DNA of 64,000 nt from Escherichia phage EC148. The stretch lies in the sequence record NC_106721.1. One strand, written 5' to 3'. The translations under genes and the position numbers were made by a program. This document shows, piece by piece, positions 36,333 to 42,201 of the stretch; position 1 is the first letter of the stretch, and each line of letters opens with the position of its first letter. The notes beneath the pieces are model-generated. The model saw only the letters and a list, made by a program, of their open reading frames with translations. It made no database searches and was not told the DNA's origin.

Positions 36333-36851
36333 TTAGAAATTTAGCTTCATAGCAAGAAAATTTTTCAAGTTTTCGGTAGACATCTCATCCACATCTACGG
36401 GAGAAACAAAGCCGTTTAATTTTCTAGCAAATTTTTCACCCGCAGGATCGTTGTCTCCGACAGCTACCAATTTAAAAGGTAATAATTTCAGTTGCTTTAA
36501 TAACGCTTTTCCTGGAGAAGAACCTAACATTGCCAGGGCTGGATAACCAGCGTTATGTAGCGCAACTGCCTTAAATACAGATTCAGCGATCAATACTACT
36601 TTTTCATCTCCATTGAGAGTTTCTAGTCCCCATACACACTGGGTAGTAGAATAAGTAAAATATTTAGCTTCAAAGGGACACTTACCATGACCTTTTGGAG
36701 CAGAAGGATTATACGTCTGATAGCCTCGCAACATCCCGGAGAAGTCATACAACGGGACTGTTAGCCATCCTTCCGGACTTAACCAGCAATGATATTTATC
36801 TGTATCAAATCCTCTGGATAAGAGGTGCTGTGTTAGCTCATCAACATTCAT
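36333..36851 (-). CDS. Toprim-like domain protein (putative)
   Basis: start taken at MNVDELT; C-terminal E ... VGDNDPAG resembles a Toprim acidic motif. Confidence 0.3.
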   Translation of the reverse strand: MNVDELTQHLLSRGFDTDKYHCWLSPEGWLTVPLYDFSGMLRGYQTYNPSAPKGHGKCPFEAKYFTYSTTQCVWGLETLNGDEKVVLIAESVFKAVALHNAGYPALAMLGSSPGKALLKQLKLLPFKLVAVGDNDPAGEKFARKLNGFVSPVDVDEMSTENLKNFLAMKLNF

Positions 36852-36881
36852 ATTTGGTTCCTCTCTCAAATTTATAGATAT

Positions 36882-36910
36882 ATTATACAGAGAATTTAGC
36901 ATTCAAGCAA
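36882..36910 (-). promoter_or_regulatory. early promoter, TTGCTT-17-TATAAT
   Basis: conserved cassette. Confidence 0.55.
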
Positions 36911-37117: not shown

Positions 37118-38107
37118 ATGACAGAAGAAGTAGCTAAGAGTCCTGAGACCGTCGCTAGCGTTGCAGCAGAACTGCACAGTCACGAGGAATCAGATAAGAA
37201 AAAGTGGGAGAAGGTCAGAGCCTACGAAGAAAAACATCGTGAACACGATGATGAAGAAGAAGATGACGATGATGAACATTGTCATAAATATGGAAAACAT
37301 AAAATGCAAGAACCAGTAAACGTATTCACTAGTGGCTTCCCTGGCCTACTGGGTGGTTACCCAGCAAACGCAGGTGCTTTCGGTGGTGAAGGTATGGGAC
37401 TATTCGGAGCTATCCTAATCGGTGCTCTATTAACCGGCGGATTCGGTGGTTTCGGTGGATTCGGTGGACGTGGTGTAGTTGGTGAAGGTACCGCAGTTGA
37501 TGCAGTACTTCAGAACCAAGATACCGCTAGTATTCTAGCAGCTATCAACACTACTCGTACAGAGGCTAACCAGGGTACTGGAGCTGTTTTAAGCGCAGTT
37601 AACAATGGTTTTAGCCAGACAACCCAAAACCAGAGCCGTGATACTCAGTCTGTACTAACTACGATCTACGGTACAGGTGCTAATCTGTCTAATCAGATCT
37701 GCCAGGAAACTCGCAACGTTATTCAGGGTCAGTTCGATCTTTCTCGCCAGATTGATCAATCTTTCGCAGCTAACCAGATAGCTCGTGCACAAGATAAGTT
37801 TGATTCTGCACAGATCGCTTTCCAGCAGACTTTACAAACTAATAACCAGTTTGCCGCTGTTCAGGCTCAGATGTGTGCTAACCAGAACTCTCTGGAACGT
37901 CAGATCGCTGAATGTTGCTGTGAACTTCAGACTGCGATCGCTGGTGTAACTACTGCGCGTATCCAGGATGAGTTAGACGCATGTCGCCTACGTGAAGCAA
38001 TCGCTGCGGGTAGCGGTGCTAACGGTCAGGTAATTAATCAAATCGCTTTAAGTCTTGGTGCTATCACTCAGACTCTGGCTGGTCTGCAGGCTAAACTGCC
38101 GGCTTAA
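37118..38107 (+). CDS. membrane-anchored Gly-zipper / Gln-Asn-rich protein
   Basis: start moved to ATG with AGGAGG RBS; acidic N-terminus, GLFGAILIGALLTGGFGGFGGFGG hydrophobic Gly-rich segment, then Q/N/T-rich repeats and a CCC motif. Confidence 0.55.
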   Translation: MTEEVAKSPETVASVAAELHSHEESDKKKWEKVRAYEEKHREHDDEEEDDDDEHCHKYGKHKMQEPVNVFTSGFPGLLGGYPANAGAFGGEGMGLFGAILIGALLTGGFGGFGGFGGRGVVGEGTAVDAVLQNQDTASILAAINTTRTEANQGTGAVLSAVNNGFSQTTQNQSRDTQSVLTTIYGTGANLSNQICQETRNVIQGQFDLSRQIDQSFAANQIARAQDKFDSAQIAFQQTLQTNNQFAAVQAQMCANQNSLERQIAECCCELQTAIAGVTTARIQDELDACRLREAIAAGSGANGQVINQIALSLGAITQTLAGLQAKLPA

Positions 38108-38128
38108 TATTAAGGGGAGGAGCCCATT

Positions 38129-38545
38129 ATGAGTAAATATGGTTTTGTAAATAACGGACTTAATCAAAGTATGGGCTCCCAGCAGCCCATTCCGGGTCTG
38201 GATAACCCCTACTTACAACAGTTGCAACAGCGTTTAGCAGAAGCGCAACAGATGCAGCAACAACTCCAGCAAAACCCTGGAAGTGTGAGTCCTATGCAAA
38301 TGATGCAGCAAATGAGCGGGCAGTCGCAAATGCCTCAACAAATGCAGCAACAGGTGCCTCAGCAGCAAGTTCAGCAACAAACCCAACAACCGCAGGTTTC
38401 TGCGGAAGGACAGGCAGTACTAGCCCTTTTCGAAGACTTCGCAAAGACAGAGGATGGGAAACAGCTTGTATCACTTATGGGTAAGTTTAATAGCTTCTGC
38501 CAAAGCCAAGTTGCAAAAGCTCAAAATGGGGGTAGTAACTCCTAA
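38129..38545 (+). CDS. Gln-rich low-complexity protein
   Basis: 138 aa; GGGGAGG RBS; poly-Q/M tracts. Confidence 0.5.
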   Translation: MSKYGFVNNGLNQSMGSQQPIPGLDNPYLQQLQQRLAEAQQMQQQLQQNPGSVSPMQMMQQMSGQSQMPQQMQQQVPQQQVQQQTQQPQVSAEGQAVLALFEDFAKTEDGKQLVSLMGKFNSFCQSQVAKAQNGGSNS

Positions 38546-38554
38546 GGAGGAAAT

Positions 38555-38749
38555 ATGTGTTGCAGAAAATCTGTTTCGTGCTGCCCAGTGCCTGTAGCAC
38601 GTTGTTGCTCTCCAGCAATGTTTACGCAAATACCGGCGTTCAATCCCTTTGCCTTTAAGCCTACTCTTATCCTGCCCCCTAGAGTAGATTTTCAGTCAAG
38701 ATTGGCCTCCCGTATGGGTGGTTGCTGTACACCGAGAGTATGGTTCTAA
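38555..38749 (+). CDS. Cys-rich peptide with four CC doublets
   Basis: 64 aa; AAGGAGG RBS; MCCRKSVSCCPVPVARCCSP ... GGCCTPRVWF. Confidence 0.45.
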   Translation: MCCRKSVSCCPVPVARCCSPAMFTQIPAFNPFAFKPTLILPPRVDFQSRLASRMGGCCTPRVWF

Positions 38750-38757
38750 ACCAAAAA

Positions 38758-38796
38758 CAAAAGCCCCTGCCGAAAGGTAAGGGGCTTTTTCTTTTG
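38758..38796 (+). terminator. rho-independent terminator
   Basis: stem AGCCCCT/AGGGGCT followed by TTTTTCTTTT. Confidence 0.65.
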
Positions 38797-38804
38797 CCTT
38801 AAAT

Positions 38805-38842
38805 ACAGAAAAGCCCGCGCTCTCGTAGGAAACGCGGGCTTG
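38805..38842 (-). terminator. rho-independent terminator
   Basis: stem AGCCCGCG/CGCGGGCT with U-tract on the minus strand after the SPFH gene stop. Confidence 0.6.
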
Positions 38843-38864: not shown

Positions 38865-39812
38865 TTACTTGTTACGCATATCCATGATCATTTGACCATC
38901 GTAGCCAGTACCTACCACAGTCTGAGGTACACCACCTTGATACTTCTGAGCACGGATCATTTCAACTTCCAGTTGTTTCCAACGAATCATTTCAGGAGTA
39001 ATGGTACGTTGCAATGCGGCGTTAGCTTCAGCTTCTTTCTTAGCTGCGTACAGTTTAGCATCTGCGTCACGTTCATTAGCAATAGCTTGGTTGTTACGAG
39101 CTTCACGATCTGCTTCTGCTTGTTTAACTTTTTGCTGTGCTTCCTGTTCAACGCGAGCAAGTTCAGCTTTCGCAGCATTAACTTGCTCTTCACGAACTTT
39201 GGTATTCTGTACCTGTTCCATGATTACTGGCGGCAAGGTAATATCCTGAAGGAATACCTGCTTAACTGTGTAACCATATGGGCGCGCATACTCTTCAACT
39301 TCCTGTTGAATTGCAGTTTGCAATTGAGCCTGAATTTTAGCATCAAATAAATCTTGTGCTTTAGGTACAGACTTACCAAACTCACGAATAGTAGACAGTA
39401 ATTTTTCAGTTACATACTTGTCTAGTGCCTGATCCTGAGTACCTGCGTTAATACGGTTAATCGGTGCTTTAGAACCATCAAACTGCAACATAACAGTCAG
39501 GTCAACAGTGGATTTAAACTTATCCTGGCTAGGAACCTGAAGTTTATCTAATTTTACAGCAATATCTTTTGTACTAAAAGTATCGAAAGATGCAAACGGG
39601 TTTACAAGATGGAAGCCCGGCAATACTGGATTAGGGTCTACTTTACCCAGGAATGTTTGGGTTTTAACCGTACCATCAGAAACAATAGTATATGAATTAA
39701 AAGCTAGGATTAAACCTGCTAAACCAACTACAGCACCAATACCCCAACGTTTAATAGTACGAATTACTTTCTGCTCAGAAGTCAGTTCTTTCATATTTTT
39801 AGTAGCAAACAT
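38865..39812 (-). CDS. SPFH/band-7 (prohibitin/HflKC-like) membrane protein
   Basis: 315 aa; N-terminal TM helix, SPFH-like core, Ala/Glu/Gln coiled coil, prohibitin-like C-terminus. Confidence 0.55.
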   Translation of the reverse strand: MFATKNMKELTSEQKVIRTIKRWGIGAVVGLAGLILAFNSYTIVSDGTVKTQTFLGKVDPNPVLPGFHLVNPFASFDTFSTKDIAVKLDKLQVPSQDKFKSTVDLTVMLQFDGSKAPINRINAGTQDQALDKYVTEKLLSTIREFGKSVPKAQDLFDAKIQAQLQTAIQQEVEEYARPYGYTVKQVFLQDITLPPVIMEQVQNTKVREEQVNAAKAELARVEQEAQQKVKQAEADREARNNQAIANERDADAKLYAAKKEAEANAALQRTITPEMIRWKQLEVEMIRAQKYQGGVPQTVVGTGYDGQMIMDMRNK

Positions 39813-39846
39813 ATATTTCCTTTGTTTTAGTTACAGTTAATAAAAT

Positions 39847-39921
39847 TGGCCGAGGTGACAGGATTCGAACCTGCATAAAGGAATTTAGAAGACTCCTGCC
39901 TCTCCCTTAGACTACACCCCG
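39847..39921 (-). tRNA. tRNA-Arg (UCU)
   Basis: 75 nt; anticodon loop CTTCTAA; T-arm ACAGG-TTCGAAT-CCTGC. Confidence 0.5.
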
Positions 39922-40423
39922 TTTAAGTATTTTTAAGAACTCTCGTAAAAACTCTTAAAAATACAGACGATACCGGGAGAGTCATAAGTCTCACTCATTA
40001 AGTATTTCAAGACAAAATACAGTAACGTCTATTATTTTCCAGTTTAAGTCAGGGTGACTTAGTGGTTATGTCCTGCGGTATATTGAGGACTCGGTTAGGC
40101 TTGGGGTCATGACTTCCCACCTTTTGCTGCTACTCAACAGGAGTTATCGCGAATTACCTGTGCTATTGTGCACCATTAGTGACATCTCTCATGTCAGCAT
40201 TTCCCACTTTGTGGATAGCTTGAAAAACTACTCCGATATGGAGAAAGAACTTCACTATCCTAGAATACCTTCTAAAGTTCTTCTTTAGCCTGGACATAGT
40301 TAAATCGTAATAAAACTATTCAGCAGACTGGTTGGTTAGTCTGGAACCAACTACCGCGTGGTTTAGGCAGTGCGCAACTAACCTCGGAAGCTTTTATGTT
40401 AAAAGCATCAGTTATCCAGTTCT

Positions 40424-40493
40424 TACCGACCGTAGGATTCGAACCTACATCTTCCACCAGTTACGGCTTGATAATACCAATTATACTAGGACG
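40424..40493 (-). tRNA. tRNA-like element, anticodon unresolved
   Basis: T-arm GTAGG-ATTCGAA-CCTAC and plausible acceptor pairing; internal arms not resolved. Confidence 0.25.
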
Positions 40494-40718
40494 GCAGTGT
40501 TACTACATAAGTGATTTCCACACCCCACTATTTATAAATCAGAGAAGAGTTTAGGGGAGAGGTTTCAGACGCCTCATTTTACACGTTCTAGCCACTAACC
40601 GGGATTGCCGCCCCCTGTGTACTAGTTTTACAACTAACCCACCGACTCTATTCAATGCGCTCCGGTTGGGATTCTGCACTCAGCGTAATCGGCTCGCTGT
40701 TCCCTAATTTATGAATAT

Positions 40719-40747
40719 ATTATACAGAATTTATAAGCATTTAGCAA
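40719..40747 (-). promoter_or_regulatory. early promoter, TTGCTA-17-TATAAT
   Basis: conserved cassette. Confidence 0.55.
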
Positions 40748-40755
40748 ATGAATTT

Positions 40756-41190
40756 TTAGAAAAATTCACTAGCAATCAAAGCAGTTGTTTTACCGTCATA
40801 ACGTCCGGGAAATTCTGCCTTAATAGTTTTCATTAATAGAGCTTTGGTAATACCTGGGTTTAATTTAACCAGTTCTGCAAAATACTCACGAATCTGAACC
40901 TCAGTCAGTTGACTTGGCTGATACTCTTGCAGCATGGAATAAAGCAGTTGCTCATAGTCTACATCAGTAGGAACTTCCATACCAACTTTAATAGCGCGTT
41001 GTTTTGCATTTTCTAGAGCCTTAATCTGAGCTTTCAGATAGGCTACGAACTCGGTTCGAGTAACAATGTCTTTATCAATACGTTGCAGATCACCAATCAT
41101 GGTCTGAAGATTAAGTGCCCGTTCCTTATCACCGTGAGTACGTGCTAGACTAAGTAGTCCACGAAGGGTCATTAGAATATTTTCACCCAT
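40756..41190 (-). CDS. hypothetical protein
   Basis: 144 aa ORF. Confidence 0.45.
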   Translation of the reverse strand: MGENILMTLRGLLSLARTHGDKERALNLQTMIGDLQRIDKDIVTRTEFVAYLKAQIKALENAKQRAIKVGMEVPTDVDYEQLLYSMLQEYQPSQLTEVQIREYFAELVKLNPGITKALLMKTIKAEFPGRYDGKTTALIASEFF

Positions 41191-41428: not shown

Positions 41429-41896
41429 TTAAGTTTTAGTGACAACAGGTTTATAGAATGTATGTCCCTTAATCTTAGTTGTTTTCTTAAACTTCTTTGT
41501 CCAGTAAGGTTTATCTTTACCACTATGGAAGTATAGTGCTCCATATGTAGGATCTTGTGGTAAATCAACGTAGTATATCACTCTAGCTAAATTCTTAGCA
41601 GTTTGCCAAGCCTCATCAGTTTTATCAACTTTTGGTCTCTTAGATACCCAAGAGAACTGGTTAGACTGATATACTACTTTACAGTAGGAATCTGGGAATT
41701 TACCGGAGTTTACACGGTTTTTAGTAACATGTGCAATCGCCGTCATTCCCTTTATGCCCTCACCACGACTTTCGAAATAGATATTTTTAGCAATGCAATC
41801 TATTTCTTTTGCATCGTGCGATGCCTGACTACTAAAGCTGAAGGTAAGGGCAGCTACTAAAAGCAAAGCTGCCTTCATTCTTTTTACTCCTGCCAA
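41429..41896 (-). CDS. secreted cell-wall hydrolase, SleB/Hydrolase_2-like
   Basis: 155 aa; signal peptide; ESRGEG ... AIAHVTKNRVNSGKFP ... QSNQFSW matches the SleB-family signature. Confidence 0.5.
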   Translation of the reverse strand: MAGVKRMKAALLLVAALTFSFSSQASHDAKEIDCIAKNIYFESRGEGIKGMTAIAHVTKNRVNSGKFPDSYCKVVYQSNQFSWVSKRPKVDKTDEAWQTAKNLARVIYYVDLPQDPTYGALYFHSGKDKPYWTKKFKKTTKIKGHTFYKPVVTKT

Positions 41897-42201
41897 TCAT
41901 ATTCAACACGATTGGGATTTTCTTTATACCCTAAGTCAAGCAAATCATTACGCATATTTTGCTTAGCTACTGGGTTCGAGGTTACTAGTACCACTTTCTT
42001 TGGTCTCTGCCCAAATTCTAAGAGTAAACGAAGAATTTGATAACCTTCCATACCATCTACAGCCAAGTCATTATCCATATAAACGAAATGGCCGGTGGTA
42101 TCAGTTTTATTCAGAAACTCTACAGCGGCTTCTGGGGTTCGAATGATAATGTCCATTCCGTGAAGATTACGCACATCATCAATCAAAATATGAAAAGTCA
42201 T
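41884..42201 (-). CDS. CheY-like receiver-domain protein (tentative)
   Basis: 105 aa; HILIDDV, YMDNDL, VVLVTS pattern resembles receiver beta1/beta3/beta4 motifs. Confidence 0.3.
   Translation of the reverse strand: MTFHILIDDVRNLHGMDIIIRTPEAAVEFLNKTDTTGHFVYMDNDLAVDGMEGYQILRLLLEFGQRPKKVVLVTSNPVAKQNMRNDLLDLGYKENPNRVEYDWQE

What the first reader, a model, noticed from the sequence alone, without database searches (positions are those of the whole stretch)
38865..39812. SPFH/prohibitin-like membrane protein convergent with the plus-strand cassette
SPFH proteins scaffold membrane microdomains and regulate FtsH-type proteases in bacteria. A phage copy with strongly biased codons, terminated back to back with the novel cassette, may modulate host membrane proteolysis or work together with the cassette products.
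Basis: partly seen in the sequence, partly recalled or inferred. Interest (0 to 1): 0.45.

Follow-up and report, generated by a model that had tools for sequence, protein, structure and literature searches.

The report
Phage T5 SPFH membrane-scaffold gene (T5.080)
This is a real, strongly conserved but lab-dispensable gene of T5-like phages encoding a membrane-anchored SPFH (prohibitin/HflK-like) scaffold protein; it is already annotated in public genomes, is inherited independently of the neighbouring three-gene cassette, and its function has not been tested.

Summary
The window is a T5-like phage (Tequintavirus). The ORF at 38865-39812 (-) is real and is the orthologue of T5.080 (99% aa identity). 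It passes the Pfam Band_7 cut-off (64 bits, cut-off 23.6). Its AlphaFold model aligns over its full length to the cage-forming SPFH proteins erlin, prohibitin, HflK/C, stomatin and QmcA.

Predicted anatomy: K/R-rich N-tail, one TM helix, SPFH domain, long coiled coil, C-terminal beta hairpin. There is no cysteine, so the common "lipoprotein" label is wrong. The charge distribution predicts an N-in/C-out topology, so the SPFH domain would face the periplasm as in HflK/C.

- SPFH is in about 439 phage records, about as many as a core gene (436); the cassette is in 221.
- Mosaic breakpoints fall between the two terminators.
- Two cassette genes occur in a Pseudomonas phage with no SPFH.
- The same SPFH (about 77% identity) sits in T4-like phages without the cassette.

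The gene is deleted in viable T5 st0 and scored "Not Fit" in CRISPRi-ART, yet dN/dS is 0.02. The feature is already known, its function is untested, and FtsH modulation remains speculative.

The parts
40719..40747 (-). Sigma-70-like promoter (TTGCTA-17-TATAAT) that most likely drives the RNAX / tRNA-Arg / SPFH transcription unit
   Evidence: 10 of 12 consensus matches. It lies inside the window homologue (40701-40767) of the T5 annotated promoter P16-17.
39922..40551 (-). RNAX-like stable-RNA region upstream of tRNA-Arg; contains a tRNA-like element at 40424-40495
   Evidence: 91-99% identical to T5 rnaX, annotated 'stable RNA with unknown functions'. Rfam tRNA model 35.5 bits at 40424-40495.
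39847..39921 (-). tRNA-Arg (anticodon UCU), 34 nt upstream of the SPFH start codon on the same strand
   Evidence: ARAGORN; Rfam 49.3 bits; 100% identical to T5 tRNAR.
39818..39822 (-). Shine-Dalgarno AAGGA, 5 nt before the ATG
   Evidence: Read directly from the sequence.
38865..39812 (-). SPFH/Band 7 protein gene, 315 aa, orthologue of T5.080
   Evidence: 99% aa identity to T5.080. dN/dS 0.02.
39699..39746 (-). Codons for the single transmembrane helix (residues ~23-38). It is preceded by a 22-residue tail with 6 K/R and 2 D/E.
   Evidence: Hydropathy and charge count. The AF2 model has a helix at residues 12-38.
39237..39692 (-). Codons for the SPFH alpha/beta domain (residues 41-192)
   Evidence: Pfam Band_7 covers residues 52-225. 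AF2 secondary structure. Foldseek hits to SPFH structures.
38943..39230 (-). Codons for the long Ala/Glu/Gln-rich coiled-coil helices (residues 195-270 and 273-290)
   Evidence: AF2 model. Aligns to the coiled-coil region of QmcA and prohibitin.
38877..38921 (-). Codons for the conserved C-terminal beta hairpin (residues 298-312, GGVPQTVVG..Y.G.MIMD.R). This is the element that closes the cap of SPFH cages.
   Evidence: AF2 strands at residues 298-302 and 308-312, with low pLDDT here. Family conservation. The role in cage closure is inferred from solved SPFH cages.
38801..38841 (-). The gene's own rho-independent terminator (12-bp GC-rich stem plus U tract). It travels with the SPFH gene in genomes that lack the cassette.
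   Evidence: -20.7 kcal/mol, z=-4.2. Retained in phagemcphageface. blastn matches begin at window position 38803.
38752..38796 (.). Hairpin flanked by A and T runs that ends the plus-strand cassette. It marks the boundary between the two modules.
   Evidence: -22.8 kcal/mol on +, -22.2 on -. The T5 counterpart is annotated as an efficient bidirectional terminator.
37118..38749 (+). Neighbouring cassette (T5.077, T5.078 and T5.079 homologues). Listed only as context: it is an independent mobile module, not a partner.
   Evidence: PHROG 8119 and 7894. GC 0.46-0.48 against 0.40 for SPFH. Present in 221 records against 439 for SPFH. T5.077 and T5.078 homologues are found in the SPFH-less phage KPP23.

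Best explanation
The ORF is the T5.080 orthologue, a phage-specific member of the SPFH (stomatin/prohibitin/flotillin/HflK-C) superfamily.

Shown:
- It is a real gene under strong purifying selection.
- It has one N-terminal TM helix, an SPFH domain, a long coiled coil and a conserved C-terminal beta hairpin. This is the complete architecture of cage-forming SPFH proteins.
- It has a good ribosome-binding site and its own terminator.
- It is dispensable for plaque growth of T5 on laboratory E. coli.
- It is inherited independently of the adjacent cassette.

Inferred:
- It lies in the early region, so I take it to be expressed early. It is most likely transcribed from the P16-17-type promoter as the last gene of an RNAX / tRNA-Arg / SPFH unit.
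- It inserts N-in/C-out, so the SPFH domain faces the periplasm as in HflK/HflC.
- It self-assembles, without an NfeD or second SPFH partner, into a dome or ring that fences off a patch of the host inner membrane.

Most likely purpose (speculative): to condition or stabilise the inner membrane, or to sequester host inner-membrane proteins, during infection. This would give an advantage only under natural conditions such as envelope stress, competing phages or host defences. The client protein or proteins are unknown; FtsH is one candidate.
For: Identity:
- Pfam Band_7 at 64 bits against a cut-off of 23.6; PHROG 200 at 1.9e-86.
- phmmer and profile hits to QmcA and prohibitins in the PDB.
- AF2 model with pLDDT 79. 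Foldseek gives full-length (265-313 column) alignments at E=1e-15 to 1e-10 to erlin1/2, PHB1/2, HflK/C, stomatin and QmcA cages.

Topology:
- 6 K/R in the 22 residues before the TM helix, against 2 in the 22 after it.
- The N-flank is K/R-rich in almost all of the 22 family members.
- By contrast QmcA, which faces the cytoplasm, has no charged N-tail (alignment).

Stand-alone action:
- No NfeD or second SPFH gene sits next to it in any of 8 lineages examined.

Expression:
- Promoter, tRNA, Shine-Dalgarno and terminator anatomy.
- Codon usage is at the optimised end for this genome.

Accessory but selected:
- Absent from the viable T5 st0 deletion mutant.
- T5.080 is 'Not Fit' in the CRISPRi-ART supplement of PMC11879866.
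- dN/dS is 0.02-0.09.
- Present in about as many Markadamsvirinae records as a core gene.
- Exchanged between T5-like and T4-like phages at ~77% aa identity.

Membrane or envelope context elsewhere:
- In the tk-rI region of T4-like phages.
- Next to TelA/TerF/TerD and a SleB-type wall hydrolase in an uncultured phage.
Against: - No experiment on any phage SPFH protein was found in the literature searched.
- Oligomerisation, topology and clients are all predictions.
- pTM of the monomer model is only 0.47 and the C-terminal hairpin has low pLDDT.
- The positive-inside rule is a rule of thumb.
- Loss of the gene has no measurable cost in the laboratory, so any role is conditional and could differ from those proposed.
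- One natural isolate (NG_S8) carries an internal deletion of the gene.
Confidence: 0.6

Rival explanations
1. HflK/C mimic: the protein forms a periplasm-facing cage around host FtsH, or intercalates into or competes with HflK/C. It would thereby tune FtsH-dependent proteolysis of membrane or regulatory substrates during infection.
For: - The predicted N-in/C-out topology matches HflK/HflC and not QmcA.
- The full-length structural alignment includes HflK/C chains 7vhq, 7wi3 and 9cz2.
- HflK/C is known to enclose FtsH hexamers via their periplasmic domains (PMC12048511; PMC13086221).
- One Vibrio phage homologue is annotated 'putative modulator of FtsH protease'. That label is annotation only.
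Against: - No NCBIfam HflK or HflC model is matched at E<=0.1.
- Sequence identity to HflK/C chains is only 16-18%, no better than to erlin, prohibitin or stomatin.
- There is a single gene rather than an HflK/HflC pair.
- No FtsH-dependent step is known for the strictly lytic T5 (my knowledge).
- Knock-down and deletion are neutral in the laboratory.
Confidence: 0.2
2. Superinfection exclusion or lysis-timing factor: the cage protects the inner membrane against DNA injection by secondary phages. Alternatively it delays holin-mediated permeabilisation.
For: - In T4-like RB16 and PMBT1 the gene lies directly after rI and rI.-1 (lysis inhibition). In Aeromonas phage 31 it lies within 3 kb of rI.
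- In the Vi01-like phage PhiSH19 an SPFH gene is listed next to a 'superinfection exclusion protein' (PMC3220722).
- It is near a secreted SleB-type wall hydrolase in T5-like phages and in an uncultured phage.
Against: - The tk-rI region of T4-like phages is a general hyperplastic accessory region, so adjacency there is weak evidence.
- No such neighbours exist in the window. Here the gene is flanked by a tRNA and terminators.
- T5 already has Llp for receptor blocking (my knowledge; cited).
Confidence: 0.12
3. Functional partner of the convergent cassette T5.077-079.
For: - The two are physically adjacent and share a terminator region.
- T5.077 also has a Gly-rich hydrophobic segment, so both could be membrane proteins (sequence).
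- Both are removed by the st0 deletion and both are 'Not Fit'.
Against: - 439 records against 221.
- The breakpoint lies between the terminators.
- Cassette-less genomes with 99% identical SPFH exist.
- T5.077/T5.078 homologues are in the SPFH-less Pseudomonas phage KPP23.
- SPFH is in T4-like phages without the cassette.
- GC differs (0.46-0.48 against 0.40), as does the strength of constraint (dN/dS 0.16-0.27 against 0.02).
Confidence: 0.04
4. Outer-membrane or receptor-blocking lipoprotein, as implied by the widespread 'lipoprotein' annotation and by a 2026 paper equating it with Llp.
For: - PHROG 200 and RefSeq label it 'lipoprotein'.
- PMC12887010 suggests an Llp-like, FhuA-binding function.
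Against: - The protein contains no cysteine at all, so it can have no lipobox.
- The family alignment shows no conserved Cys after the hydrophobic segment.
- The fold is SPFH.
Confidence: 0.01
5. Component of a counter-defence or NAD+-salvage membrane module, for example a scaffold for a PnuC-type importer.
For: The SPFH gene lies next to or near non-orthologous NAD-salvage genes in three lineages:
- Directly followed by NadR-type NMNAT plus PnuC in Epseptimavirus.
- Directly followed by a NadM/Nudix-type NMNAT in RB16 and PMBT1.
- PRPP synthetase plus NAMPT lie 2 kb downstream in SE131.
- The two NMNATs share only 26% identity over 156 aa.
Against: - There is no NAD gene near it in this window, in T5, in Aeromonas phage 31, in the Vibrio phage, or in L014 and L018.
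- Accessory genes cluster in the same plastic regions anyway.
- No statistical test was made.
Confidence: 0.04

Closest known systems
T5.080 of Escherichia phage T5 (YP_006908; PHROG 200) and its orthologues in Markadamsvirinae
   Same: - 99% amino-acid identity and the same length.
- The same position after tRNA-Arg and RNAX.
- The same terminators and neighbours.
   Different: Nothing of substance. The T5 record calls it 'lipoprotein ... single transmembrane domain'. The lipoprotein part is not borne out, because the protein has no Cys.
SPFH genes of T4-like phages (RB16p130, RB43ORF139c, Slopekvirus 'lipoprotein', Aeromonas 44RRORF098c / PHG31ORF098c), noted by Nolan et al. 2006 (PMC1524935)
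   Same: - The same family, at 61-78% aa identity over ~95% of the length.
- The same architecture.
   Different: - Carried by an unrelated phage family (Straboviridae), in the tk-rI region.
- No tRNA or cassette neighbours.
E. coli HflK/HflC (FtsH-associated periplasm-facing SPFH cage)
   Same: - N-terminal TM helix with a large C-terminal SPFH plus coiled-coil part predicted to be on the periplasmic side.
- Full-length structural alignment.
   Different: - A single gene rather than a heteropair.
- 16-18% identity.
- No match to the HflK/HflC NCBIfam models.
- FtsH binding is untested.
E. coli QmcA-YbbJ (SPFH-NfeD complex, PDB 8z5g)
   Same: The best sequence match in the PDB (E=1.8e-6). It is especially similar in the SPFH2 and Ala/Glu-rich coiled-coil region.
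   Different: - No NfeD partner gene.
- Opposite predicted membrane orientation: QmcA lacks a charged N-tail.
Eukaryotic erlin1/2 and prohibitin PHB1/2 cages
   Same: The top Foldseek hits (E=8e-15 to 1e-11). They share the element order TM, SPFH, long helix, C-terminal cap.
   Different: - 16-19% identity.
- Organellar hetero-oligomers from a different biological context.
Other virus-encoded SPFH proteins (Vibrio phage pVa5, Rhizobium phage Pasto, Streptomyces phage StarPlatinum, Tupanvirus, Marseillevirus, Pandoravirus)
   Same: The same fold in predicted structures (E=6e-18 to 1e-8), so SPFH genes recur in viruses.
   Different: - Only 14-22% identity, so these are separate acquisitions.
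- I found no functional study of a virus-encoded SPFH protein in the literature searched.

Membership tests
SPFH / Band 7 superfamily (Pfam PF01145, clan CL0433) | Significant match to the Band_7 profile above the curated gathering score | tested here: met
   64.2 bits against a cut-off of 23.6, E=2e-17, residues 52-225.
SPFH / Band 7 superfamily (Pfam PF01145, clan CL0433) | SPFH alpha/beta fold | tested here: met
   AF2 model with pLDDT 79. Foldseek probability 1.00 to more than 60 solved SPFH chains, including stomatin core-domain crystal structures at rmsd 2.3-4.3 Å.
SPFH / Band 7 superfamily (Pfam PF01145, clan CL0433) | Membrane anchoring through an N-terminal hydrophobic segment | tested here: met
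   One hydrophobic 17-19-residue window (mean Kyte-Doolittle 1.8-1.9) at residues ~23-44, conserved in all 22 family members. This is a prediction only.
SPFH / Band 7 superfamily (Pfam PF01145, clan CL0433) | Coiled-coil extension plus C-terminal element, and assembly into a ring or cage oligomer | not testable with these tools
   The helices at 195-290 and the strands at 298-312 are predicted and align full-length to cage subunits. Oligomerisation itself could not be computed or measured.
HflK/HflC FtsH-modulator pair | Match to the HflK or HflC equivalog models | tested here: not met
   No NCBIfam family at E<=0.1.
HflK/HflC FtsH-modulator pair | Two paralogous adjacent SPFH genes forming a heteromer | tested here: not met
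   Only one SPFH gene is in the locus, flanked by tRNA-Arg and terminators.
HflK/HflC FtsH-modulator pair | SPFH domain on the periplasmic side of the inner membrane | tested here: inconclusive
   The positive-inside rule favours N-in/C-out: 6 K/R before the TM helix against 2 after it, and the pattern is conserved in the family. No experimental test.
HflK/HflC FtsH-modulator pair | Physical association with FtsH, e.g. the HflK Arg191 contact with FtsH residues 62-64 (PMC12048511) | not testable with these tools
   The contact is described. No residue-level structural alignment or interaction data were available.
SPFH-NfeD operon pairs (QmcA-YbbJ, prokaryotic stomatin-NfeD) | Adjacent NfeD-family gene | tested here: not met
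   Neighbouring ORFs here and in five other phage contexts have no NfeD Pfam hit.
Bacterial lipoproteins (as implied by the PHROG 200 / RefSeq name, and Llp of T5) | Lipobox with an invariant Cys at the signal-peptidase II cleavage site | tested here: not met
   Zero cysteines in the 315 residues. No conserved Cys in the family alignment.
PHROG 200 / T5.080 phage SPFH clade | Full-length high-scoring match to the family, and orthology with T5.080 | tested here: met
   PHROG 200 at E=1.9e-86, residues 5-314. 99% identity to T5.080 in the same synteny. A profile of the clade finds only 83 clusters at E<=1e-30 among 1.84 billion representatives, so the clade is narrow.
Known anti-phage defence proteins (PADLOC-DB) | Match to any PADLOC model | tested here: not met
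   No hit at E<=0.1 for SPFH or for the three cassette proteins.

The most novel reading that the evidence does not exclude
The phage protein is a minimal, homo-oligomeric, periplasm-facing SPFH cage. Lytic phages of several unrelated families would use it to capture a specific host inner-membrane machine, either FtsH or a membrane-acting or NAD-linked defence or transport component. That would make it a new class of host-takeover or counter-defence factor. The recurring placement next to NAD-salvage genes, Ter-type stress genes and lysis-inhibition genes would then reflect this role.
Probability: 0.1. Interest if true: 0.6.

Novelty: already known. Interest (0 to 1): 0.2.

Why it matters
As a finding it adds little. 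The gene is T5.080 and is already labelled an SPFH/band 7 protein in many GenBank records. SPFH genes in T4-like phages were noted in 2006 (PMC1524935).

Three points are worth keeping:
- The proposed link to the neighbouring cassette can be dropped, so the cassette should be analysed on its own.
- The widespread 'lipoprotein' name is wrong. It has already misled at least one paper into equating the protein with the FhuA-blocking Llp (PMC12887010).
- The gene is dispensable in the laboratory, yet it is nearly universal in Markadamsvirinae, under very strong purifying selection (dN/dS 0.02), and shared with T4-like phages.

That last combination marks it as a conditionally important accessory gene. 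A knockout tested on natural hosts could reveal what a virus gains from building its own SPFH membrane cage. It could also give a simple single-gene model for how SPFH cages select their clients.

Tried and rejected
- **NCBIfam and PADLOC scans** of SPFH and the three cassette proteins gave no hits. The protein is therefore not an HflK/HflC equivalog and not a known defence protein.
- **Literature searches** found no functional study. Terms tried: SPFH plus bacteriophage T5; 'SPFH domain' plus phage-encoded; T5.080; SPFH/phage/HflK/superinfection; prohibitin/bacteriophage/lysis inhibition/band 7. One targeted paper, PMC12373910, does not mention SPFH.
- **A transferred SPFH+NMNAT two-gene block** between T5-like and T4-like phages was rejected. 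The NMNATs share only 26% identity over 156 aa, while the SPFH proteins share 77%.
- **KPP23 ORF072 as a homologue of the 64-aa cassette ORF** was rejected. It has the same size and position but no similarity.
- **Megablast of the two uncultured-phage contexts** L014 and L018 against the phage collection gave no match, so their lineage could not be named.
- **Apparent SPFH-less T5-like genomes.** Six genomes in the sample looked as if they lacked SPFH, which raised the possibility of frequent loss.
  - DaisyDussoix was checked and has a 99.7% identical gene.
  - Bastian was already a tblastn hit.
  - The other four were not checked. In the checked cases the split came from how BLAST pieces were joined.
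- **Rfam hits over the terminators** (anti-hemB, ctRNA_p42d, Rev39 5'UTR) are far below their gathering scores and are taken as hairpin noise.
- **The alternative start at Met7** was rejected. It has no Shine-Dalgarno, and T5 and all relatives use the 948-nt frame.
Full report
**What the window is.** The 3.2-kb region around the finding is 100% identical to Escherichia phages SUT_E420, T5_ev212 and SUT_E520. It matches 440 phage records, nearly all Salmonella or Escherichia T5-like phages (Demerecviridae, Markadamsvirinae, Tequintavirus). The window carries the typical T5 tRNA island: 21 tRNA genes on the minus strand between 28571 and 39921.

**The observation.** An ATG-initiated ORF of 315 codons occupies exactly 38865-39812 on the minus strand.
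- It has an AAGGA Shine-Dalgarno 5 nt upstream of the ATG.
- It scores 64.2 bits on Pfam Band_7/SPFH against a gathering cut-off of 23.6, E=2e-17. It matches PHROG 200 at 1.9e-86.
- It is convergent with three plus-strand ORFs: 37118-38107, 38129-38545 and 38555-38749.
- Two hairpins separate them. The first is the gene's own terminator at 38841-38811, -20.7 kcal/mol, z=-4.2.
- The second is a hairpin at ~38752-38796 flanked by A and T runs, -22.8 kcal/mol on the + strand and -22.2 on the - strand. In T5 its counterpart is annotated 'efficient bidirectional rho-independent transcription terminator'.
- Codon bias is real but moderate. Nc is 37.8 against 46.3 ± 5.8 for the 31 long ORFs, the third lowest. 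CGT accounts for 12 of 14 Arg codons and GGT for 14 of 16 Gly codons. AGA, AGG, GGA, GGG and ATA are not used.

**What the protein is.** It is the orthologue of T5.080: 99% aa identity and the same synteny.
- By sequence, the nearest solved structures are E. coli QmcA (E=1.8e-6) and human prohibitins.
- I built an AlphaFold2 model from a 22-sequence family alignment. Mean pLDDT is 79 and pTM is 0.47.
- The model shows a helix at residues 12-38 that contains the hydrophobic segment, an alpha/beta SPFH domain at 41-192, and a 76-residue helix at 195-270.
- It continues with a second helix at 273-290 and a C-terminal beta hairpin at 298-312.
- Foldseek aligns it over 265-313 columns to subunits of the erlin1/2, prohibitin, HflK/C, stomatin, QmcA and flotillin cages. 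E-values run from 8e-15 to 1e-8 and probability is 1.00.
- It therefore has every element of a cage-forming SPFH subunit.
- It has no cysteine, so the frequent 'lipoprotein' label (PHROG 200, RefSeq) is wrong.
- That label has already led one paper to suggest an Llp-like FhuA-blocking role (PMC12887010).
- NCBIfam, which includes the HflK and HflC equivalogs, gives no hit. PADLOC gives no hit either.

**Topology (inferred).** The 22 residues before the hydrophobic segment hold 6 K/R and 2 D/E. The 22 residues after it hold 2 and 2. A K/R-rich N-flank is seen in almost all 22 family members. By the positive-inside rule the N-terminus stays in the cytoplasm and the SPFH and coiled-coil part is exported. 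That is the arrangement of HflK/HflC. It is the opposite of QmcA, whose TM helix starts at residue ~1 with the basic residues after it (alignment). This is a prediction, not a result.

**Transcription unit.**
- A TTGCTA-17-TATAAT promoter-like site lies at 40747-40719. It falls inside the homologue (40701-40767) of T5 promoter P16-17.
- Downstream come an RNAX-like region at 39922-40551, 91-99% identical to T5 rnaX, which is annotated as a stable RNA of unknown function.
- Inside it is a tRNA-like element at 40424-40495 (Rfam tRNA, 35.5 bits).
- Next come tRNA-Arg(UCU) at 39847-39921, the SPFH gene and its terminator.
- The gene uses no AGA codon, so it has no special relation to the adjacent tRNA.

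**Is it linked to the cassette?** No.
- tblastn finds SPFH at >=80% identity in 439 phage records. That is practically the same as the neighbouring core gene T5.087 (436 records). The two larger cassette proteins are each in 221 records.
- These counts include RefSeq/GenBank duplicates and partial records, so they are not a per-genome matrix.
- An even-step sample of blastn hits shows many T5-like genomes matching only from query position 1904, which is window 38803. That position lies between the two terminators.
- In SPLA5b and DaisyDussoix a 99% identical SPFH gene lies directly next to the toprim gene with no cassette.
- In phagemcphageface the cassette is replaced by NadR and PnuC, and similarity ends right after the SPFH terminator.
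- Homologues of T5.077 (58% identity) and T5.078 (48%) form a block in Pseudomonas phage KPP23. Its whole 62.8-kb genome has no SPFH gene.
- The cassette also differs in GC (0.46-0.48 against 0.40) and in constraint (dN/dS 0.16-0.27 against 0.02).

**Distribution and constraint.**
- The same protein family occurs at 76-78% aa identity in T4-like phages (RB16, RB43, Slopekvirus, Cronobacter and Enterobacter phages). It occurs at ~61-64% in Aeromonas T4-like phages and at 32-42% in Vibrio phages. This is horizontal exchange between unrelated phage families.
- Nolan et al. 2006 had already listed the SPFH domain in RB43, 44RR and Aeh1 (PMC1524935). The T5 record cites those ORFs.
- A profile of the clade, searched against 1.84 billion cluster representatives, finds only 83 clusters at E<=1e-30 and 331 at E<=1e-10. 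All named close hits are phages or phage-sized contigs. This is a narrow, phage-borne SPFH clade.
- More distant SPFH folds are common in other phages and in giant viruses.
- dN/dS is 0.02 against T5 (dS 0.33), 0.075 against an Epseptimavirus and 0.07-0.09 against T4-like copies.

**Dispensability.**
- The T5 st0 deletion mutant is viable and widely used. It lacks the whole block from T5p066 to T5p079, including the cassette and SPFH (no tblastn hit).
- The supplement of the CRISPRi-ART study lists T5.077, T5.078, T5.079 and T5.080 all as 'Not Fit' (PMC11879866).
- One natural isolate, NG_S8, has an internal deletion of the gene.
- So the gene is accessory in the laboratory, yet strongly maintained in nature.

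**Contexts elsewhere.** No NfeD gene or second SPFH gene is adjacent in any lineage examined. The neighbours vary:
- rI and rI.-1 (lysis inhibition) in RB16 and PMBT1; rI 3 kb away in Aeromonas phage 31.
- A pilin-like and a membrane ORF in Aeromonas phage 31.
- TelA, vWA-TerF and TerD upstream, and a SleB-type hydrolase downstream, in an uncultured ~124-kb phage. That hydrolase is 36% identical to the window's 41429-41896 product.
- An nSTAND-type ATPase, a ProQ-like gene, PRPP synthetase and NAMPT in SE131.
- NAD-salvage genes of non-orthologous types directly downstream in Epseptimavirus and in RB16/PMBT1.

These are leads, not proof. They point loosely to envelope or membrane and stress functions.

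**Mechanism: my best reading.**
- Shown: the gene is real, it is an SPFH protein, it stands alone, it is accessory, and it is independent of the cassette.
- Inferred: because it lies in the early region I take it to be expressed early; its codon usage is at the optimised end for this genome. It would insert N-in/C-out and homo-oligomerise into a periplasm-facing dome that fences off a patch of inner membrane.
- This follows what HflK/C, QmcA, prohibitin, erlin, flotillin and stomatin do in solved structures.
- Speculative: what it encloses. FtsH is the obvious candidate, given the HflK/C-like orientation (about 0.2). Superinfection exclusion or lysis timing comes next (about 0.12). NAD-salvage or counter-defence coupling is about 0.04.
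- I found no experiment on any phage SPFH protein.

**Verdict.** The idea that the gene works with the cassette is contradicted. The FtsH idea is untested. The feature is already known at annotation level as T5.080, so novelty is low. The open question of its function is modestly interesting.

Noticed in passing
L009:1397-3667 (Salmonella phage phagemcphageface); L003:5013-7167 (RB16); L005:3486-5638 (PMBT1); L016:4001-8921 (SE131): The SPFH gene sits next to or near NAD-salvage genes in three unrelated phage lineages. It is directly followed by NadR-type NMNAT plus PnuC in Epseptimavirus, and by a NadM/Nudix-type NMNAT in RB16 and PMBT1. PRPP synthetase plus NAMPT lie 2 kb downstream in SE131. 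The two NMNATs are not orthologous (26% identity over 156 aa). This could be coincidence within plastic regions or a functional link.
   Followed up: partly
L014:337-5837 and L015:102-5837 (uncultured ~124-kb and 49-kb phage contigs): A 75%-identical SPFH gene lies immediately after a phage-borne TelA, vWA-TerF-like and TerD (tellurite/Ter stress) cluster. One ORF later comes a SleB-type Hydrolase_2 that is 36% identical to the window's 41429-41896 product. The contig has no megablast match in the phage collection.
   Followed up: partly
window 37118-38749 (+); L010:3021-4433 (Pseudomonas phage KPP23): The cassette has higher GC (0.46-0.48) than its surroundings (~0.39). Its first two genes have homologues as a block in the Pseudomonas phages KPP23 and RSP. 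T5.077 has an acidic N-terminus, a Gly-rich hydrophobic stretch and a Q/N-rich C-terminal part. The Q-rich T5.078 is mis-annotated in many records as 'cAMP-dependent protein kinase catalytic subunit'.
   Followed up: partly
window ~38811-38841: In T5 (NC_005859) a 'major DNA single-chain interruption' (nick, consensus Pu-GCGC) is annotated between the bidirectional terminator and T5.080. The window's SPFH terminator stem contains GAGCGCGGG on the minus strand, so the terminator hairpin may coincide with a T5-type nick site.
   Followed up: no
window 40424-40495 (-): A tRNA-like element (Rfam tRNA 35.5 bits, above the gathering score of 29) lies inside the RNAX-like region. ARAGORN does not call it. 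Some records annotate it as 'tRNA-OTHER'.
   Followed up: no
window 41884-42201 (-): The 105-aa ORF just upstream of the SleB-type hydrolase (the T5.084 homologue) matches Pfam cREC_REC, 'Cyclic-phosphate processing Receiver domain', at E=3.8e-15. It is annotated only as hypothetical in T5-like genomes.
   Followed up: no
window 36333-36902 (-): The toprim-only 189-aa protein is annotated 'DNA primase' (T5.076 homologue). It is labelled 'anti-defense / Known / Semi-Fit' in the CRISPRi-ART supplement, unlike its 'Not Fit' neighbours.
   Followed up: no
L013:2962-3129 (Escherichia coli phage NG_S8): This natural Epseptimavirus isolate has the SPFH gene reduced to a 55-aa ORF. Only the last ~42 residues still match. 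It is a rare natural loss.
   Followed up: partly
phage collection records OR848805.1, OR848346.1 ('Listeria phage LM 4-14-1') and 'Campylobacter' entries: Short records labelled as Listeria or Campylobacter phages carry T5-like sequence. One has a 99.7% identical SPFH gene. These are probably contamination or mislabelling in the deposited data.
   Followed up: no
window 39812-39795 and family alignment A1: The 'lipoprotein' product name attached to this family (PHROG 200, RefSeq) is unsupported, because the protein has no Cys. It has propagated into the literature as an Llp-like function (PMC12887010).
   Followed up: yes
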